DNA of 64,000 nucleotides from Eledone cirrhosa (taxonomy: Eukaryota): NCBI GenBank assembly GCA_964016885.1, contig OZ024741.1, forward strand, positions 27,156,001 to 27,220,000, written 5' to 3'. Each line of letters opens with the position of its first letter. Position 1 is the first letter of the stretch. The notes under the pieces were generated by a model that was not told the DNA's origin, made no database searches, and saw nothing but the letters and a program-made list of their open reading frames with translations. A program made the position numbers and the translations under genes. This document shows positions 2,861-34,756 of the stretch, piece after piece.

Positions 2861-2900
2861 TATATATATATATATATATATACACATATATATATATTTA

Positions 2901-3264
2901 TATAACAACTAGAAATTGATTAACATATAAATAAACATATGAAACAGTCACAGGGGATAATTTTTACAAGTGTGTAAGCACACATAGCTAGGTAGGTAAC
3001 TAAATAAAGTTAACTAGAACTTCAAAAATAGATACCTTATAATATGATTAATCTTCCCTGTATATATTCCATTAAAGAAATATATTTCTTTAATGGAATA
3101 TATACAGGGAAGATTAATCATATTATACGGTATCTATTTTTGAAGTTCTAGTTAACTTTATTTAGTTACCTACCTAGCTATGTGTGCTTACACACTTGTA
3201 AAAATTATCCCCTGTGACTGTTTCATATGTTTATTTATATGTTAATCAATTTCTAGTTGTTATA
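2901..3264. repeat. Spacerless 364-bp palindrome
   Basis: Arms 2901-3082 and 3083-3264 are reverse complements with one visible mismatch; centre is GAAATA|TATTTC. Confidence 0.95.
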
Positions 3265-3525
3265 AAATGCTTGGACCTATTCATTAGCATCTTGGAGCTT
3301 ATTTTACAGGTGATACGGCGCATGCCTTTCTGGCATGACACCCATAATTTTGATTTAGATTAAATTCACTTTGAGATATATATATATTTATATATGCAAA
3401 GTTTTATTTAAATTGTTGGGTTACAACGAGTAAATATTTATAACTGATATAAAAGCACTCAGCAAGTATTTGGAGTATATTTACGATATTAAATAAATGG
3501 AAACTATATTTATAAAACCATATTT

Positions 3526-3589
3526 ATTTCATTATATATATTTCAGGGATATCATATTAAAAATATGGTATGCCTTCTTCAGACAAAAT
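3526..3589 (-). ncRNA. Type I hammerhead ribozyme motif
   Basis: Minus strand reads attttgt CTGAAGA aggcataccatat-tttta-atatgatatccct GAAA tatata TA atgaaat; stems I, II and palindromic III pair. Confidence 0.75.
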
Positions 3590-3796
3590 ACAATATAAAC
3601 AGTCTTATAAATAGATAGATTTGACATACCTTACAACTTCAACTTCCATTTAAAAAGTTGATTTGGTAGTCAAATCAGAAGAGATATTTATGTAGAAGAG
3701 ATATTTAATTTGTTGGAAATCCAACAAATATAGATTTCTGGAGTAAGTATTCAATGATATTAAATAAATGGAAACTATATTTATAAAACCAAATTT

Positions 3797-3856
3797 ATTC
3801 TATTATATATATTTCAAGGGTACCAACAATTTTGGTACGCTATCATCAGATAAAAT
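3797..3856 (-). ncRNA. Type I hammerhead ribozyme motif (U10.1/U11.1 variant)
   Basis: Minus strand reads attttat CTGATGA t-agcgtaccaa-aattg-ttggtaccct-t GAAA tatata TA atagaat. Confidence 0.75.
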
Positions 3857-4767
3857 AAAATGTTTTATAAATATTTGACATGACCAAGGATAATATACCT
3901 TAACGGTTTAAGTTATCCCTGGAAAGTGAAGGGAAGAAAGAAGAAAAGTCGGATATTTAAAATTATTAATATGTGTTTGCAAATGATGTTTATATTAAAG
4001 GGCTGAAAAAACGTTATTTTAGACGCTATGGAAAATTTAAATATTTATGATAAGGAAGAGAAAGAGAAAAAGAAAAAGAGAAAGAGAAAAGAATAACGTT
4101 CATTTGGGGGAAAAGATTTTTGTTACCTATATTATGAGTTATAAAATTATATGAAGAATTATGTTTGTAAGTATTTTTATTTTATTACATTAGGATAGGT
4201 TATATGTATATAAATATCTCTATATATATTAATAAATTGCGTATGCATTGATTGTTTATATAAACTAATATGAGTTACGAAAGATGTTGAAATTTTATTT
4301 TCAATTTGTGAGATTAGAATAATTTGTGGATTCAAAAATTTTCAACATTGAGAATGTTTTGACAATATTGTTAATTTAACGAAGCTATATAAATTATCAA
4401 ACTAAAATTGTTAAAGAAGAAGGAAAAGGAAGACCACTTAAACGTTAACTTAGGGGAAATATATTTAGACATTTATCTATATTTATATGGAGAATTATTT
4501 ATCTTATTATAATAATATATAAATATCTATATATATTTTAATAATAGCATATGTATTTTTTTGTTAAAAGGATAGTTTGTTTATAATATGAGTTACGAGG
4601 GATGTTGATTTATAAATAAAAAAAATAATAAATAGATGTTTGTTCCTAATATAAGTTACTAGGGATTTATTAATATATATATAGATATTTATATACATAT
4701 AACCTATCCTAATGTAATAAGATAAAAATACTTACAACCATAATTCTTCATATAATTTTATAACTCA

Positions 4768-5675
4768 CTAGCAGTGGTACCCGGCGTTGCACGGGATAAG
4801 GTATTTTGGAAGGCGGGCCGCCAACAGACCTAATCGTGGAAAGACTGCATGCCTGGACAATATGTAAAGAAAATAAACCGAATACTCTGATGGCTGGATA
4901 ATCTTTAAGATTTTCCTCGATGAAGCAGGAAAAATGCAGGTTTTCACCTAATGCGGGCCCTAGGGGATCAAGAAAATGAATTTTTTTTATGTGCATAATA
5001 TGCCTTGAAATTTTCGGGAAAATCGGCTAAACGTAACGCCTCCAAAAAGCCCTAAAAAGCTGAAAAAATGAAGTTTTTCACCTAATACGGGCCCATAAAA
5101 AAGTTGAATTTTTTTCTCACGGTATGAAGAAGAGACTGACTAATACATAGTTACAATTTCAAGGAAATCGGTCTGACGTAACGCCTCAAAAAACCCATAA
5201 AAAGCTTTAAAAACGCAGTTTTTCACCTAATGCGGGCCCTAGGAAATCAAAAAGTTGCATAACACTCTCTGAAACATAAGTAATACACATATAAAGTTTG
5301 AAAAAAATCGGTTGGGTACTTCTCGAGTTTTAGGGATTCAAACTCACAGACACATACACACAGAGAGACAGACATTCTCAGGGAAGTGATGTAATGCAGA
5401 CAGCCAGACATACAGACAGATATTATAAAGGCGCGACGTTATATGTATGTATCTATCTAAAAAGAGAAAGACTAAGAATTATAGAGCGAGATCGCTAAAT
5501 CGCCTAATGCGGTCCCTAGGGCATTGAAAATTTGAAATTTCTTTTGCTCAGAACACTCCCTGAAACAAGTATTACGTGTGTAAAGCTTGAAAACAGTCGG
5601 TTGGGTGGTTCTCGAGATTTAGGGATTCAAACCCACACACACACAGACAGACATCCTCAGTTTGATATATATAGA
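4768..5675 (-). mobile_element. Non-autonomous Helitron-like element
   Basis: Minus strand starts TCTATATATA..., has (GTCT)/(GT) repeats, a subterminal hairpin CCCGTGCAACGCCGGG and a CTAG end. It is inserted between A and T with no TSD, as shown by the intact other IR arm. Homologous to 14843-16469. Confidence 0.85.
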
Positions 5676-5914
5676 TAATATAGGTAACTAAATCTTTTCC
5701 CCAAAACTTCCTTCCTTATCATAAATATTTAAATTTTCCATAGCGTCTAAAATAACGTTTTTTCAGCCCTTTAATATAAACATCATTTGCAAACTCATAT
5801 TAATAATTTTAAATATCTGACTTTTCTTCTCTCTTCCCTTCAGTTTCCAGGGATAACTTGAACCGTTAAGGTATATCATCCTTGGTCATGTCAAATGTTT
5901 ATAAAACATTTTAT

Positions 5915-5971
5915 ATTTTATCTGATGATAGCGTACCAACATTTTTGGTACCCTTGAAATATATATATATA
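5915..5971 (+). ncRNA. Hammerhead motif truncated at its (TA)n cleavage loop
   Basis: attttat CTGATGA tagcgtaccaa-cattt-ttggtaccctt GAAA (ta)n, then a Helitron CTAG end instead of the stem I 3' strand. Confidence 0.65.
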
Positions 5972-6129
5972 CTAGCAGAATGGCCCAGCGTTGCTCGGGA
6001 TTTGCTCTAGGGTTCTTATATATTTTATATATATTTATCCTTATCGAGCCTCGTGAAATAAATACGTTTGTTTATTTTTTGTTATTGTGTATGCAAAAAT
6101 ATATGTACACGAATATATAATTATATATA

Positions 6130-6201
<72 letters not shown>

Positions 6202-6314
6202 TAACAGATTAAAGTTTAAGCAAAGAATCGCCTCTTTCACCCCTAACGGGATCTTCTGAAACTAAAGAAAATCAATCTGTGAACGCAGAAGTAAATATTT
6301 CGAAAAACGTTATA

Positions 6315-6360
<46 letters not shown>

Positions 6361-6655
6361 CATATACATACATATAAATACACACACACAGATAGCGACA
6401 CCATAATGTAATGCAGATAGACAGACATACAGACAGATATTATAAGGGTGCAATGTTATATCTATGTATCTATCTAAAAAGAAAGATTAAGAATTATAGA
6501 GAGAGAGATCGCTTAATGCGGTCCCTAGGGCATTGAAAATTTGAAATTTGCTCAAAACACTCACAGGACCATAAGTATTACATGTGAAAAGTTTGAAAAC
6601 AATTGGTTGGGTGGTTGTCGAGTTTTAGGGAGTCAGACAGACATTCTCTGTTTTA
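5972..6655 (-). mobile_element. Degenerate Helitron-like element with nested insertions
   Basis: CTAG plus hairpin (CCCAGCGTTGCTCGGG) at 5972-6000; 6405-6655 homologous to 5388-5660. Confidence 0.65.
6213..6263 (-). ncRNA. Hammerhead-like motif, CAGAAGA variant
   Basis: agttt CAGAAGA tcccgttaggggt GAAA gaggcgattctttgc TT aaact; homologous to 32334-32385. Confidence 0.45.
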
Positions 6656-14570: not shown

Positions 14571-14842
14571 ATGATATATGGAAACGGCCTATCCGGCTAT
14601 GTCTGTTCTATTCGACTTGCTTCGTCTCCTAATTATGTGTGAGTGTGTGTGTGAGTGTGTATGTGTGTGTGTGAGTGTGTATGTGTGTGAGTGTATATGT
14701 GTGTGTATGTGAGTGTATTTGTGTGTGAGTGTGTATGTATGTGTGTGAGTGTGTATGTGTGTGAGTGTGTATGTGAGTGTGTATGTGTGTGTGAGAGTAT
14801 TTATGTCCAGTTGACAGACCATTCAGTCAAAGGAATGATTTA

Positions 14843-16469
14843 TCTATATATATAAAACTGAGGATGTCTGTGTGTGTGTGAGTTTGAATCCCTAAAACTC
14901 GAGAACCACCAAACCGACTGTTTTCAAACTTTACACATGTAATACTTATGTTTCAGGGAGTGTTCTGAGCCAAAACAATTTCAAATTTTCATTGCCCTAG
15001 GGACCGCATTGGGCGATTTAGCGATCTTGCTCTATAATTCTTAGTCTTTCTCTTTTTAGATAGATACATACATATAACGTCACGCCTTTATAATATCTGT
15101 CTGTATGTCTGGCTGTCTGCATTACATCACTTCCTACAATTCCCTCTACGTCTAGAACGCGCCCTTATAATAGCTGTCTGTATGTTTAGCTGTCTGCTGC
15201 CTCCAGTAATTCTGCCACCCTTGCTCAAGACAAATCTCACACTCATTCCCCAAACAGTTTGTAAGTGCACACAACTTCTTCCTCACGTTTTAAGCCACAG
15301 TGTTTCTTAGTTACATACCACCAGACCCTTACTTCTTTGCCAGCCGTGGTTGTGGCAATACTAAGCTTAGCTAAGGCGGTTATATATTTCACGCAACACT
15401 AAAAATGAAAGCCGATAACTATGTATTAGTCAGTCTCTTCTTCATACCGTGAGCAAAGAAAATCCAACTTTTAGTGGAGCGTGTGAAATAAGTCAACCCT
15501 GCTGCGATTCAAAAATCAGGTTTGCAGGTTATATATTTCATACAACACTAACAATTAAAGCCGGTAAAGAAAAACATCGCTGTAATAGCTTCAGTTTTCT
15601 TACTTACGTGCCTTTACGAGAACAAAAGTTACTATTTTACCGCTTAGTATTGTAGAGAAGCACCAAACCGACTGTTTTCAAACTTTACACATGTAATACT
15701 TATGTTTCAGGGAGTGTTGTGAGCAAAAATAATTTCAAATTTTCAATGCCCTAGGGACCACATTAGGCGATTTAGCGATCTTGTTCTATAATTCTTAGTC
15801 TTTCTCTTTTTAGATAGATACATACATATAACGCCGCGCCCTTATAATATCTGTCTGCATTATGTCACTTCCCTGAGGATGTCTGTCTGTGAGTTTGAAT
15901 CCCTAAAACGCAAGAAGTACCCAACCGATTTTTTTCAAACTTTACATGTGTATTACTTATGTTTCAGTAATACAACTTTTTTATCTCCTAGGGCTTGCAT
16001 TAGGTAAAAAACTGTGTTTTTTAAGATTTTTAGGGGTTTTTTTGAGGCGTTACGTCAGACCGATTTCCTTGAAATTGTAACTATGTATTAGTCAGTCTCT
16101 TCTTCATACCGTAAGCAAAGAAAATCCAACTTTCTTATGGCCTAGGGCCGCATTAGGTGAAAAGCTTCATTTTTTCAGCTTCTTAGGGCTTTTTGGAGGC
16201 GTTACATCTAGCCGATTTTCCCGAAATTTCAAGGCATATTATGCACATGAAAAAAATTTGTTTTCTTGATCCCCCAGGGCCCACATTAGGTGAAAACCTG
16301 CATTTTTCCTGCTTCATCGAGGAAAATCTTAAAGATTATCCAGCCATCAGAGTATTCGGTTTATTTTCTTTACATATTGTCCAGGCATGCAGTTTTTCCA
16401 CGATTAGGTCTGTTGGCGGCCCGCCTTCCAAAATACCCTATCCCGTGCAATGCCGGGTACCACTGCTAG
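14843..16469 (+). mobile_element. Non-autonomous Helitron-like element (longer variant)
   Basis: A|TCTATATATATAAAACTGAGG start, CCCGTGCAATGCCGGG hairpin, CTAG|T end, internal duplication (~14900-15130 vs ~15655-15870); reverse-complement homolog of 4768-5675. Confidence 0.85.
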
Positions 16470-16752
16470 TAATATATAAAAAAATTGGTTAAATTAACAA
16501 CTATTTCCCCAGCAAAACGTGTGTTTTCAACAGATAAAAATGCTGTAAATGTAATGTAACCAATTTTTTTGTATATATATATATATATATATATTAATTT
16601 GAGTATGTGTTGAGTAGTTACGGACACTTCAGAATGCAGGGTAGAACACTCAATGAAGTGTGCAGGTGGGTCTGTTTACTCCAGAGTAATTTAAAAACAA
16701 GAAGTGTAGGTCAACAGGTTAAAAATAACTTCATTTATTCATATTCAGTGTT

Positions 16753-19700: not shown

Positions 19701-20880
19701 GAGGGATTTAGTGTTTACAACAGACACTCTGTCACATCTTCTGGTAAGGATATAATCTACCTGGCTGGTATGTTCCCTGATCTGTAGGTGATCAGGTGAT
19801 TGTCACGTTTTTTGAAGTTAGTGTTACAGATAGTTAGGTTATTTGCATCACAGAATTCTAGGATTCTGGAGCCTTCCTCATTTCTAGTACCAAACCCATA
19901 GCCTCCATGGATTTCGTCGTAGCCGTCACAATGTTGTCCAACGTGACCATTTAGGTCGCCTGCAATAATTATATAGTCACTGTCGGTTATTTGGGAGGTA
20001 GTGAGTATCAGTGTCTCATAGAATCTGTCTTTTATAGTGCTGGGCAGTCCGGATTAGGGTGCGTACGCAGATATTACTGTCACCGTAGTTCTATTGAGGA
20101 CAAGTCTTATTTTAATTATTCTGTCGTTCACTCTATTTACGTCTATTATCTTATCTGCCCACGGTGGATTGGCAGTATTGGTAGAGGGTCGGACGCCATG
20201 CTTTCCAGCATAGTTACGTCCCTTTACGATCTGAGTTCAAATCCCGCCGAGATTGACTTTGCCTTTCATCCTTACGGGGTCGATAAAATAAAGTACCAGT
20301 AAGACACTGGGTAATTGCTGGCCTTGTGCCTAAAGTAGAAACAATTATCTTATCTGCTCACTTTTCTGCTACCATGAATCCTACTCCACCCAGCCCATTG
20401 TCATTTCCCACCCAGAAAAGCTTATAGCATCGTTTTTTACCCACAATGAATCTAGCAGACCCACCCCTCCACCTGGTCTCTTGAATACAACAAACATCGA
20501 CCTCCTTACGTTCAAGCATTTCTACAACCTCGTTAGAGCGACCCTTTAAGGTGCCTACATTCATGGTACCAACTCTGAAGTTTTGGATTGCGTTTGGAGG
20601 TTGGGAGCGGTGGGGAGCGGGTGGAGATGGGGTTATGTTAGCCATCTGCGGCCGAAACAAAGAGGAATGCTCGCATTCTCGTCCACGAGGTGAATTTGTC
20701 TTTATCTTTGGCATTGTCACTGAGCGTCCAGATTTTTCTCTCTTCAACTCTCCAGAATTCCGTAGTCCCTCCATCCGTCATATCGAAGGCGACCAGGTAA
20801 GCGATAGTATAGGCCTCTGGCTTATGATTGGTCCACGTAATAATAATGGTGGTGCGTGGGGGCGGGCGGGAGGGGTGTTG
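16753..20880 (-). mobile_element. Longest RTE LINE family A copy (APE+RT), disrupted by a SINE insertion, a frameshift and a C-terminal deletion
   Basis: ORFs 20358-20774 (GTMNVGTL, CCIQETRW) and 17367-19727 (QGSVLSP, YADD, FRYLG); 3' UTR with a 112-bp unit repeated 4 times; (CAT)n tail at 16753. Confidence 0.95.
20163..20343 (+). mobile_element. SINE inserted in the LINE endonuclease region, with 18-bp TSD
   Basis: TSD ATTATCTTATCTGC(C/T)CAC at 20145-20162 and 20344-20361; this sequence is single-copy in the intact LINE at 36123-36140. Confidence 0.9.
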
Positions 20881-21256
20881 TATATATATTTCAGTGATAC
20901 CCATTATTCAACAACTATGATCTCATCAGACAGCTAGAACTTGAACAAAAAAAACAGAAAAACATAATGATGGAACAAAGTTTACCTCTTCTATTTCAAT
21001 CTTTTGATATGCCCAATCCCAAAGGATGGTGTTGCTTTCTCAAAGAACTGGTGGCATATCTTTGAGAAAACAACACCATACTTCGGTATTGGGCATATCA
21101 AAGGATTGTTCCAACATTATGTTTTTCTGTTTTTTATGTTCAAGTTCTAGCTGTCTGATGAGGTCATAGCTGTTGAATAATGGGTATCACCGAAATATAT
21201 ATAACAGCGAATATGAATAAACAAAACTATTTTTAACCTGTTGACTTACACTTCTT

Positions 21257-23603: not shown

Positions 23604-23830
23604 ATATATATATATATATATACATGTATATATATATATATATATATACATATATATATACATATATATACATATATATATATATACATATATACATATA
23701 TATACATATATATATACATATATATACATATATATATACATATATATATATTATATATATATATATATATGAAATATATATATATATAATATAATATAAG
23801 ATCAAAAGATGGTTAAAGGAGTTCAATATA

Positions 23831-23897
23831 TTTTATTATGCGCATTTCAAAAACAAACATCATCAAACAATAATATTTGTGTTTTCATCAGATAAAA
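23831..23897 (-). ncRNA. Type I hammerhead ribozyme motif (antisense twin of 24024-24090)
   Basis: Exact reverse complement of 24024-24090. Confidence 0.8.
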
Positions 23898-24023
23898 CAG
23901 GAGAACATGATATGAAGGCTAAAAAAAAAAACACTTGTTGATAGTGCAGTTTTAAATCAACATATCAACATAACTGCACTATCAACAAGTGTTTTTTTTT
24001 AGCCTTCATATCATGTTCTCCTG

Positions 24024-24090
24024 TTTTATCTGATGAAAACACAAATATTATTGTTTGATGATGTTTGTTTTTGAAATGCGCATAATAAAA
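24024..24090 (+). ncRNA. Type I hammerhead ribozyme motif
   Basis: ttttat CTGATGA aaacacaaatattatt-gttt-gatgatgtttgttttt GAAA tgcgca TA ataaaa; perfect 6-bp stem I, long stem II, palindromic ATGCGCAT stem III. Confidence 0.8.
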
Positions 24091-24266
24091 TATATTGAAC
24101 TCCTTTAACCATCTTTTGATCTTATATTATGCATACTCCAGTCCCACAAACTGTAGAGTGCTTCTTATCCGATATCTGCATTGCTTTATTGTACTACAAT
24201 AAAACTCACCTCCTACATATATATATAATATATATATATATAATATATTATATATATATATATGAA

Positions 24267-24399: not shown

Positions 24400-24428
24400 G
24401 TGTGTGTGTGTGTGATGATTTCTTTCGA

Positions 24429-24747
24429 ATGAAACAGTTCTAGTCCTGTAGAAGCCATTTCTATATTAAATTTGCTATATATATACATTAAAATATGTTA
24501 CCAAACACTGTTATTTATATCATAATTTAACTTTTTCACCTACATCTTTCCGGTTTTTATATTTGAAAACATATATATATATATATATATACCGGAACAT
24601 ATATATATATATATATATATAGCCGGAAAGATGTAGCTGAATAAGTTAAATTATGATATAAATAACAGTGTTTGGAAACATATTTTAACGTATATATATA
24701 GCAAATTTAATATAGAAATGGCTTCTACAGGACTAGAACTGTTTCAT
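24429..24747. repeat. Fold-back (~125-bp arms) around a (TA)n core
   Basis: ATGAAACAGTTCTAGTCCTGTAGAAGCC...CATCTTTCCGG pairs with CCGGAAAGATG...GGCTTCTACAGGACTAGAACTGTTTCAT. Confidence 0.9.
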
Positions 24748-25282
24748 ATATATATATTGAGACATTAAATGATGATGATGATTATTATAATTTATTTATT
24801 TATACCTGTTTGTTTGTCTGTTCATTTTTCCCTCCATCTATCTCTCTATTTTCCCCATCTTATCTACCACCACGACCAGCATCAACAACATCAACATCAA
24901 CAACATCAATACCAACATCACTATCTGGTCACAATGTTTACATTTGAACTGTCAAAAATAGGTTAAGCCTGGCACATGCACAAATCAATAACCGTGTTTC
25001 TGATCCATCGTGTTACCATACTTTCACTGTATTCCACCAGCCACCAACACTCACTTGCAAACACTGCATCTGTGCATCTGCAGACAGCACATGATGCACC
25101 AACTTACAGTGACAAAAACACTCTAGCTTACACACACATAATACCACAGTCACACACACACACACATATAAATATATATGTGTATATATGTATGTACGTA
25201 TATGTATGTGTATATTTATATGTATATGTATATATAAATAAATATATATATTTATATATATGTGTGTGTGTGTATTTATATG

Positions 25283-34412: not shown

Positions 34413-34756
34413 TGGTACATGGCTTAGTGGTTAGAGCATTGGCCTTGCAATCGAAAGATTGTGAGTTCAATTCTCAGACCAGGTGATGTGTTGTTTCCTT
34501 GAGCAAGGCACTTTATTTCACATTGCTCCAGTTTACTCAGCTGTAGAAATGAGATGATAGGGACTGGGGTCCCTATTATTCCACTGCAAAGTGGTCGTGG
34601 AGGTGCCACGGCAAAAAAGCACCCAGCACTCACTGTAAATGAGGTTGGTGTTAGGAAGGGCATCCAGCTGTAGAAATCAAGCCAGCATCAGTTCCCGTCC
34701 CACCCTTGCAAGCAGGGAAAAAGTGGACGTAAAATGAAATGATGATGAATGATGAT
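34413..34756 (+). mobile_element. Chimeric SINE: tRNA-like head plus RTE family B 3' UTR segment plus RTE tail
   Basis: A/B boxes at 34420-34475, CCTTGAGCAAGGCACTT core, 34581-34697 matching the family B UTR, tail matching 28190-28268. Confidence 0.75.

What the first reader, a model, noticed from the sequence alone, without database searches (positions are those of the whole stretch)
3400..5975. Tandem hammerhead pair plus inverted third copy (pLTR/retrozyme-like), twice hit by Helitrons
Seen: two minus-strand hammerheads 271 bp apart (3526-3589, 3797-3856) in diverged direct repeats sharing GATATTAAATAAATGGAAACTATATTTATAAAACCA. Their stem II sequences differ but still pair, which is structural conservation. 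A third, inverted copy (5915-5971) closes a long IR and is cut at its (TA)n loop by a Helitron CTAG end, while another Helitron splits the same arm at 4767/5676. Inference: the two identical AUAUAUAU stems III could form an intramolecular double hammerhead and release a ~270-nt monomer able to circularise.
Basis: partly seen in the sequence, partly recalled or inferred. Interest (0 to 1): 0.75.

Follow-up and report, generated by a model that had tools for sequence, protein, structure and literature searches.

The report
Stacked Penelope-type retrotransposon ends with hammerheads
The three self-cutting-RNA motifs are real, but they are the ordinary ends of two different, very abundant jumping-gene families that likely landed next to each other in a TA-repeat, so the close pair looks like a one-off pile-up and not a small replicating RNA circle.

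Summary
In detail: two minus-strand type I hammerheads with cut sites 271 nt apart, a broken inverted third copy, and two Helitron insertions. The two direct units are not copies of one repeat. W3395-3670 is the 3' end of a young family B (6,292 exact hammerhead matches in the genome); W3691-4666 plus the inverted arm is one two-armed insertion of an older family A (5,037). Both run upstream, in other copies, into related RT + GIY-YIG ORFs with the Hydra-clade motifs of Penelope-like elements (intact 740-aa ORF in L167); their own hammerhead-to-hammerhead unit is 3.75-4.0 kb. The A|B junction occurs once in the genome. Both families insert in (TA)n, and B most likely inserted last, beside A's end. 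Core conservation and stem covariation are supported, and the palindromic stem III fits dimeric cleavage. An A-B double hammerhead can be drawn, but folding models disfavour it in longer context, and expression is untested. Helitron 1 is precise (A|T, no duplication); Helitron 2 abuts loop III, with the far side deleted. The scan noted two-armed Penelope-type hammerhead repeats elsewhere in this genome. Verdict: new members of a known kind, low interest.

The parts
2898..3374 (.). Neighbouring family C: two-armed, (TA)n-ended repeat (185-nt arms, long arm runs about 107 nt further); no CUGANGA in W3083-3380; PLE-type architecture inferred only
3375..3394 (.). (TA)n tract shared by the end of C and the 3' end of B
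3395..3670 (-). 5'-truncated 3' end (pLTR with tail) of young Hydra-clade PLE family B; 0.4% from the nearest copy held
3395..3483 (-). Family B 'tail' (89 nt between the short end at +49 and the long end at +138 after the cut); equals the 5' leader of the next unit
3485..3520 (-). 36-nt block shared by A and B, ending just before the short end; part pairs with sequence upstream of the ribozyme in the folds; role in RT recognition inferred
3526..3589 (-). Hammerhead 1 (type I, palindromic UAUAUA loop III), family B; predicted cut 3533|3532
3671..3677 (+). 7-nt start of a fold-back (CAAATCA); 8 other loci carry the same fold-back point and go on to a full palindrome
3678..3690 (.). 13-nt duplicate of W3695-3707 joining B to A; junction unique in the genome
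3691..4666 (-). Direct, 5'-truncated arm of older Hydra-clade PLE family A, with tail (about 32 nt deleted); non-coding 3' UTR only
3756..3791 (-). 36-nt shared block, family A copy
3797..3856 (-). Hammerhead 2, family A; predicted cut 3804|3803
4667..4767 (+). Inverted arm of the A insertion, first part (mirror of 4237-4135)
4768..5675 (-). Non-autonomous Helitron 1: 5' TC, 3' hairpin + CTAG, between host A and T, no duplication
5676..5971 (+). Inverted arm of the A insertion, second part (mirror of 4134 to about 3800)
5915..5971 (+). Hammerhead 3, family A, broken: loop III is (TA)6 and the stem I 3' strand and all downstream sequence are missing
5972..6655 (-). Non-autonomous Helitron 2: 3' hairpin + CTAG at 5972-5975; lacks the first 10 or so bases of the family's 5' end

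Best explanation
The stretch holds 3' ends of two different Penelope-like retrotransposon families, each ending in its own hammerhead motif, which likely came together by separate insertions into one (TA)n tract and were interrupted by two Helitrons. Shown: unit 1 matches young family B and units 2 and 3 match older family A; in other copies both continue into RT + GIY-YIG ORFs with Hydra-clade motifs, and same-family hammerheads lie 3.75-4.0 kb apart around the ORF. Inferred mechanism: the element's endonuclease nicks (TA)n, reverse transcription starts inside the RNA at one of two sites downstream of the ribozyme (+49/+138 in B, +52/+144 in A), and two truncated cDNAs joined head to head give the two-armed A insertion. 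B was then primed in the TA tract at A's tailed end, stopped after 276 nt, began a 7-nt fold-back and was joined to A's end through a 13-nt duplicate. In full-length elements the hammerheads likely work as same-family dimers through the palindromic stem III to cut unit-length RNA; at this locus they are passengers.
For: Family split: the top 40 scored matches to W3400-4130 stop at W3684 and those to W3370-3700 stop at or before W3677, self excepted. Junction pattern: 1 match in 3.0 Gb, the window itself. Exact hammerhead 3' halves: A 5,037, B 6,292. Upstream ORFs in extended loci, A vs B about 67-70% DNA identity, 59% protein identity over 364 aa. Intact 740-aa ORF in L167 with RWR, DKT, YRDD, CxCX5C, IY..YVG, CxxC..E and N..CRH, matching the Hydra description in PMC8557442 section 11. 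B same-strand spacings 3,772-3,997 nt, A 3,755 nt. Ends abut (TA)n/(TG)n-type repeats in nearly all loci printed. Of 46 A arms classed, 26 have the tail, 19 the short end, 1 is cut by another insert (some loci counted twice). Divergence to nearest copy held: B 0.4%, A 2.7-3.5%. An independent A-then-B same-strand pair with another junction is in L170, and family C also ends in this TA tract.
Against: Pfam gave no family above cut-off for 4 ORF pieces and the PDB none; the clade call rests on motifs read against the paper and on 16 strong unnamed homologues, not on a tree. Genome searches scored only 40 of 4,888 and 40 of 1,282 candidates, and the junction pattern was exact, so diverged copies of the tandem could be missed. 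Both Helitrons are further from their nearest copies held (4.3%, 4.7%) than A is, which sits awkwardly with their being later; only 19 and 14 copies were compared. Published tails are 30-40 bp (PMC8557442, PMC11167929), these are about 90 nt. No cleavage, expression or insertion step was tested.
Confidence: 0.88

Rival explanations
1. The chance tandem is nevertheless active: a minus-strand transcript folds an A-B double hammerhead, cuts twice and releases a 271-nt chimeric RNA that can be circularised, a retrozyme at birth that has not yet spread.
For: Both loops III are UAUAUA and both cross stems I pair at 7 of 7 positions (sequence). In a 381-nt fragment the constrained double form is 9 kcal/mol better than two single forms and 5.8 above the free ensemble; dimer stem III has probability 0.28. 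The circular monomer folds better than shuffles (-48.6 vs -35.3 +/- 4.1, 100 shuffles). It would carry the shared 36-nt block and A's two end sites. Dimeric constructs of weak type I hammerheads cleave well in axolotl retrozymes (PMC7229834, passages).
Against: Dimer stem III probability falls to 0.07 (585 nt) and 0.00 (755 and 1,291 nt), and the inner cross stem I is 0.00 in all four. A transcript that starts beyond W5967 would pair HH2 into a 257-bp duplex with the inverted arm (inference). No second copy of the junction. PLE hammerheads cleaved weakly in vitro (PMC4209133) or only with protein (PMC11167929).
Confidence: 0.07
2. The pair is a member of an established non-LTR retrozyme or pLTR tandem family with a ~270-nt monomer whose two copies have diverged.
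For: Spacing and low GC fit the 150-450 bp monomers described for metazoan retrozymes (PMC7229834); the units share the core and a 36-nt block.
Against: Unit 1 is about 99% identical to copies that continue into family B's own 3' UTR and unit 2 to family A; the two are about 77-81% alike where family A copies align to W3376-3613. 0 of 29 and 0 of 29 loci repeat the tandem; the junction is unique.
Confidence: 0.03
3. For HH3 only: the inverted arm was not cut by Helitron 2 but ended at loop III from the start, because reverse transcription was primed on ribozyme-cut RNA (ending in UAUAUAUA) at a TA tract beside an older Helitron, or because a later deletion joined loop III to the downstream (TA)n.
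For: The arm stops 4 nt past the predicted cut. Of 30 loci fetched (of 48) with loop III extended to (TA)6 or more, 9 besides the window end there in microsatellite or unrelated flank (read by eye). Helitron 2 is more diverged than A.
Against: Helitron 2 lacks its first 10 or so bases, pointing to a deletion on exactly the side where the rest of the arm should be. In 2 of the 30 loci (L135, L144) a Helitron-1-family element sits in loop III and the arm resumes after it. Extended-loop copies are 48 against 5,037 intact.
Confidence: 0.25

Closest known systems
Hydra clade of C-terminal EN+ Penelope-like elements (Craig et al. 2021, PMC8557442; section 11, passages, supplement part 2 and search hits read)
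   Same: RT followed by GIY-YIG, R-W-x, DKT, CxCX5C linker, CxxC and CxH around E and N, no CCHH, 3' hammerhead, (TA)n targets, partial tandems, inverted 5'-truncated partner, optional tail. A cephalopod member (Hydra-1_Obim) is listed.
   Different: Units are 3.75-4.0 kb with a 3' UTR of about 1.4 kb (listed Hydra families are mostly under 3 kb); tail about 90 nt against 30-40; hammerhead has a long stem II and a UAUAUA palindromic loop III, unlike the 3-4 bp stems III listed for Hydra; the shared block was not found in that supplement (two 19-nt words, could miss line breaks or case).
Minimal/dimeric hammerheads of metazoan PLEs (Cervera and de la Pena 2014, PMC4209133; parts 1-2 of 4 read)
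   Same: Type I motif in pLTRs, long helix II, small palindromic helix III, mostly scattered single motifs, pairs on opposite strands 100-700 bp apart.
   Different: Here the close same-strand pair is made of two different families.
Metazoan non-LTR retrozymes (Cervera and de la Pena 2020, PMC7229834, passages; Li et al. 2026, 10.64898/2026.07.22.740005, part 1 of 5)
   Same: Type I hammerheads 150-450 nt apart, AT-rich, link to PLE pLTRs; two consecutive intact motifs.
   Different: Retrozymes are tandem repeats of one monomer with many genomic copies and detected RNA circles; this is one chimeric junction of two autonomous families, with no RNA evidence.
Poseidon PLE of Anolis (Frangieh et al. 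2024, PMC11167929; parts 1-2 of 4 read)
   Same: Two fixed insertion ends downstream of the hammerhead define a tail; AT-rich targets.
   Different: There the start sites lie 111-118 nt inside the ORF and the ribozyme overlaps the start codon; here both ends lie in a 187-199-nt leader before the ATG.
Non-autonomous Helitrons (termini as described in PMC4778049, passages read)
   Same: 5' TC, 3' CTAG, subterminal hairpin, A|T target, no duplication, tandem copies.
   Different: No RepHel gene was looked for; Helitron 2 lacks its 5' end.

Membership tests
Type I hammerhead ribozyme | CUGANGA, GAAA and UH core with stems I-III | tested here: met
   HH1 and HH2; HH3 lacks stem I 3' strand
Type I hammerhead ribozyme | Core conserved above flanks; stems covary | tested here: met
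   30 A copies incl. self: core 2/359 changes, flanks 130/4310 and 48/1498; 26 of 30 cores intact. 13 motifs: 91.9% of cells paired, 14 of 20 pairs change on both sides, slides 50.6% at most; rows were chosen by a descriptor that asks for pairing
Type I hammerhead ribozyme | Match to an Rfam hammerhead model at gathering score | tested here: not met
   no match in the window
Type I hammerhead ribozyme | Self-cleavage | not testable with these tools
   needs in vitro transcription
Hydra-clade PLE | Single ORF, RT then C-terminal GIY-YIG | tested here: met
   L167 740 aa read by motifs; A ORF pieces; Pfam gave no named hit
Hydra-clade PLE | RWK-type motif, DKT, CxCX5C linker, CxxC and CxH around E/N, no CCHH | tested here: met
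   RWR (not RWK), DKT, CNCRDRSKC, CDLC..E, N..CRH, one Cys between IY and YVG
Hydra-clade PLE | Hammerhead in pLTR; partial tandem and inverted 5'-truncated copies; optional tail | tested here: met
   tail about 90 nt, longer than described
Hydra-clade PLE | (TA)n insertion preference | tested here: met
Hydra-clade PLE | Placement in the clade by RT phylogeny | not tested
   reference Hydra proteins were only seen in the supplement and compared by eye
Non-LTR retrozyme | Tandem repeat of one monomer | tested here: not met
   units belong to two families
Non-LTR retrozyme | Monomer spread to other loci | tested here: not met
   junction found once; 0 of 29 and 0 of 29 loci
Non-LTR retrozyme | Two consecutive intact hammerheads 150-450 nt apart | tested here: met
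   271 nt
Non-LTR retrozyme | Linear and circular monomer RNA in cells | not testable with these tools
   needs RNA data or RT-PCR
Helitron (non-autonomous) | 5' TC, 3' CTRR with subterminal hairpin | tested here: met
   H1: 18 of 20 loci end CTAG, 16 of 20 start TC. H2: 3' end met; 5' end missing in the window, present in relatives
Helitron (non-autonomous) | Insertion between A and T without duplication | tested here: met
   H1 against the uninterrupted mirror arm; 20 of 20 loci followed by T. H2: only the 3' side can be read
Helitron (non-autonomous) | Autonomous RepHel partner | not tested
   no search made

The most novel reading that the evidence does not exclude
Hammerheads of two different Penelope-like families complement each other in cis: stacking of their ends in one TA tract has created a transcribed hetero double hammerhead that releases a 271-nt chimeric RNA carrying the signals for Hydra reverse transcriptase, a snapshot of how retrozymes are born from PLE ends.
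Probability: 0.07. Interest if true: 0.55.

Novelty: new member of a known kind. Interest (0 to 1): 0.2.

Why it matters
As a locus it is ordinary repeat debris. Two by-products have some use: family B is a young Hydra-clade element with an intact full-length ORF and clear pLTRs (the published octopus member is listed without a pLTR), so hammerhead dimer function and two-site internal priming could be tested in this clade; and the A-B pair is a ready natural construct for asking whether hammerheads of different PLE families cross-activate, which bears on the proposed origin of retrozymes from PLE ends.

Tried and rejected
Rfam at gathering score: no hammerhead. Folding of single motifs: not significant. 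Pfam on 4 ORF pieces, PDB on one: nothing named. Protein Atlas: no answer for P0001 or P0012. Sequencing runs: no RNA holder listed, which is no evidence on expression; contigs of 4 runs of one study laid on W3150-4300 are short repeat pieces, no listed piece bridges the A|B junction and no empty site was seen: uninformative. A genome-wide count of close same-strand hammerhead pairs could not be obtained, so how often short tandems arise is known only from single cases (L170; L016 has another family's motif about 740 nt from A). A target-site-duplication reading of the 13-nt joint was dropped because the left GAGA comes from family C's end. RNA-editing marks between the two A arms: by eye 3 A>G among about 15 substitutions, not polarised. 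The missing part of the inverted arm is not elsewhere in the window. Literature: 6 searches showed no paper on cross-family double hammerheads or on these two families; the library lacks most subscription papers and Repbase, and supplements of the bioRxiv preprint could not be seen.

Full report
Observation. The window lies in a 3.0-Gb animal genome; the best named protein relative of the elements below is from Argonauta, so a cephalopod is likely (inference). On the minus strand two type I hammerhead motifs are present: HH1 AUUUUGU-CUGAAGA-stem II-GAAA-UAUAUA-UA|AUGAAAU (W3589-3526) and HH2 AUUUUAU-CUGAUGA-stem II-GAAA-UAUAUA-UA|AUAGAAU (W3856-3797). The predicted cuts are 271 nt apart. A descriptor found 4 motifs in the window and none in 20 block shuffles. 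HH3 (plus, W5915-5971) closes an inverted repeat of W3804-4237 (95.7% and 97%) and lacks the 3' strand of stem I. Rfam found no hammerhead and the single motifs do not fold better than shuffles, as expected for a 1-2 bp stem III (PMC4209133).

Conservation. In 30 family A copies (self included) the core differs at 2 of 359 positions and loop III at 1 of 180, against 130 of 4,310 and 48 of 1,498 in the flanks and 41 of 809 in the stem II region; 26 of 30 cores are intact. Across 13 motifs (12 of the 21 groups, near-identical A and B variants left out, plus W21155) 91.9% of cells pair, 14 of 20 pairs change on both sides, and slid controls reach 50.6% at most; the rows were picked by a descriptor that asks for pairing, so this is partly circular. 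Loop III stays self-complementary as UAUAUA, UAUGUA or UGCGCA, which fits dimeric cleavage.

Two families, not one repeat. A search with W3400-4130 scored 40 of 4,888 candidates; all non-self matches stop at W3684. A search with W3370-3700 scored 40 of 1,282; non-self matches are about 99% identical and stop at or before W3677, then continue into their own sequence. None of 29 A loci and 29 B loci repeats the tandem, and an exact 30-nt junction pattern occurs once in the genome. Exact hammerhead 3' halves number 5,037 for A and 6,292 for B.

What the families are. Extended copies of both run upstream into ORFs that are 67-70% identical in DNA and 59% in protein over 364 aa. L167 holds a full B unit: cut site, 187-nt leader, ATG, 740-aa ORF, long 3' UTR, next cut 3,868 nt on. 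The protein shows RWR, DKT, YRDD, CNCRDRSKC, IY..YVG without the CCHH pair, CxxC before E and CxH after N, the features given for the Hydra clade (PMC8557442 section 11), whose listed members include an octopus family with a different hammerhead. Pfam and the PDB named nothing and no tree was built. Same-family, same-strand spacings are 3,772-3,997 nt in B and 3,755 nt in A. Copies end at two fixed points after the cut (+49/+138 in B, +52/+144 in A), next to (TA)n; two-armed insertions usually have the tail on one arm only. This is the PLE tail, tied in Anolis to two internal RT start sites (PMC11167929), here about 90 nt. The 36-nt block shared by A and B ends just before the short end and recurs in 5 further motifs of the 13 aligned; a role in RT recognition is inferred.

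History of the locus (inferred). A inserted as a two-armed copy: W3691-4666 with tail, then an inversion to W4237 and back. Helitron 1 (W4768-5675) splits the inverted arm between A and T with no duplication; 18 of 20 loci of its family end in CTAG and all 20 are followed by T (termini as in PMC4778049). Helitron 2 (W5972-6655) abuts loop III of HH3 and lacks about 10 nt of its 5' end, so a deletion probably took the rest of the arm. Two of 30 fetched loci show a Helitron in the same loop with the arm resuming, but 9 show arms ending there without one, so the cause is not settled. B is the youngest (0.4% from its nearest copy held, A 2.7-3.5%). Its 5' end carries 7 nt of a fold-back that 8 other loci complete as full palindromes with mirrored private changes, then a 13-nt duplicate of A's end. 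A third two-armed family C also ends in this TA tract, and L170 shows an independent A-then-B pair with another junction: stacking in TA tracts explains the tandem. The Helitrons' larger divergence (4.3%, 4.7%; 19 and 14 copies) than A's is not explained.

The double hammerhead. Cross stems I pair fully, and in a 381-nt fragment the double form is 9 kcal/mol better than two singles but 5.8 above the free ensemble. Its stem III has probability 0.28, falling to 0.07 and 0.00 with 585, 755 and 1,291 nt, and the inner stem I is 0.00 throughout; the model ignores tertiary contacts and proteins. A read-through transcript including the inverted arm would bury HH2 in a long duplex (inference). Metazoan PLE hammerheads cleaved poorly or needed protein in vitro. 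Cleavage in a short construct is plausible; a role at this locus is unlikely and expression is untested.

Verdict. Real hammerheads and real Helitrons, but a one-off stack of ends of two Hydra-clade Penelope-like families; it fails two defining features of a retrozyme. Papers seen: PMC8557442 (section 11, passages, supplement part 2 and search hits), PMC4209133 (parts 1-2 of 4), PMC11167929 (parts 1-2 of 4), PMC7229834, PMC4778049, PMC13282606 (passages), 10.64898/2026.07.22.740005 (part 1 of 5; supplements not seen). New members of a known kind; interest 0.2.

Noticed in passing
window 23775-24131: Near-perfect palindrome with a hammerhead on each arm (cores at 23891 minus, 24030 plus) whose loop III is UGCGCA, a compensatory version of UAUAUA.
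   Followed up: partly
window 20880-21250: Another two-armed repeat with a hammerhead (core 21155, stem I AGCUGU/ACAGCG); the left arm stops at loop III next to (TA)n.
   Followed up: partly
window 2898-3374: Young family C (97-98% copies, 1,665 candidates): two-armed, (TA)n-ended, one arm about 107 nt longer, no CUGANGA core in W3083-3380; class not established.
   Followed up: partly
L100-L107: Eight palindromic mini-copies of family B, from two subfamilies, share one fold-back point and mirror their private changes in both arms: a recurrent template-switch site or a fixed RNA end.
   Followed up: partly
L153-L164: Two-armed family A minis with fold-back points 89-222 nt apart, five at 219-222 nt but with different junctions.
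   Followed up: partly
L167:4420-8426: Full-length family B unit with an intact 740-aa ORF between two hammerheads.
   Followed up: yes
L081, L087, L088, L092, L093, L097: Helitron 1 copies directly preceded by another Helitron's CTAG end (6 of 20 loci).
   Followed up: no
window 14840-16481: Further copies of the Helitron 1 family on the opposite strand.
   Followed up: no
window 34413-34482: tRNA-like Rfam hit (30.6 bits) with a broken acceptor stem; a very similar sequence interrupts an A arm in L076, so probably a tRNA-derived SINE.
   Followed up: no
L003, L020, window 24420-24750: A further hammerhead-like family with a 14-nt region between GAAA and the cut (CAGTTCTAGTCCTG).
   Followed up: no
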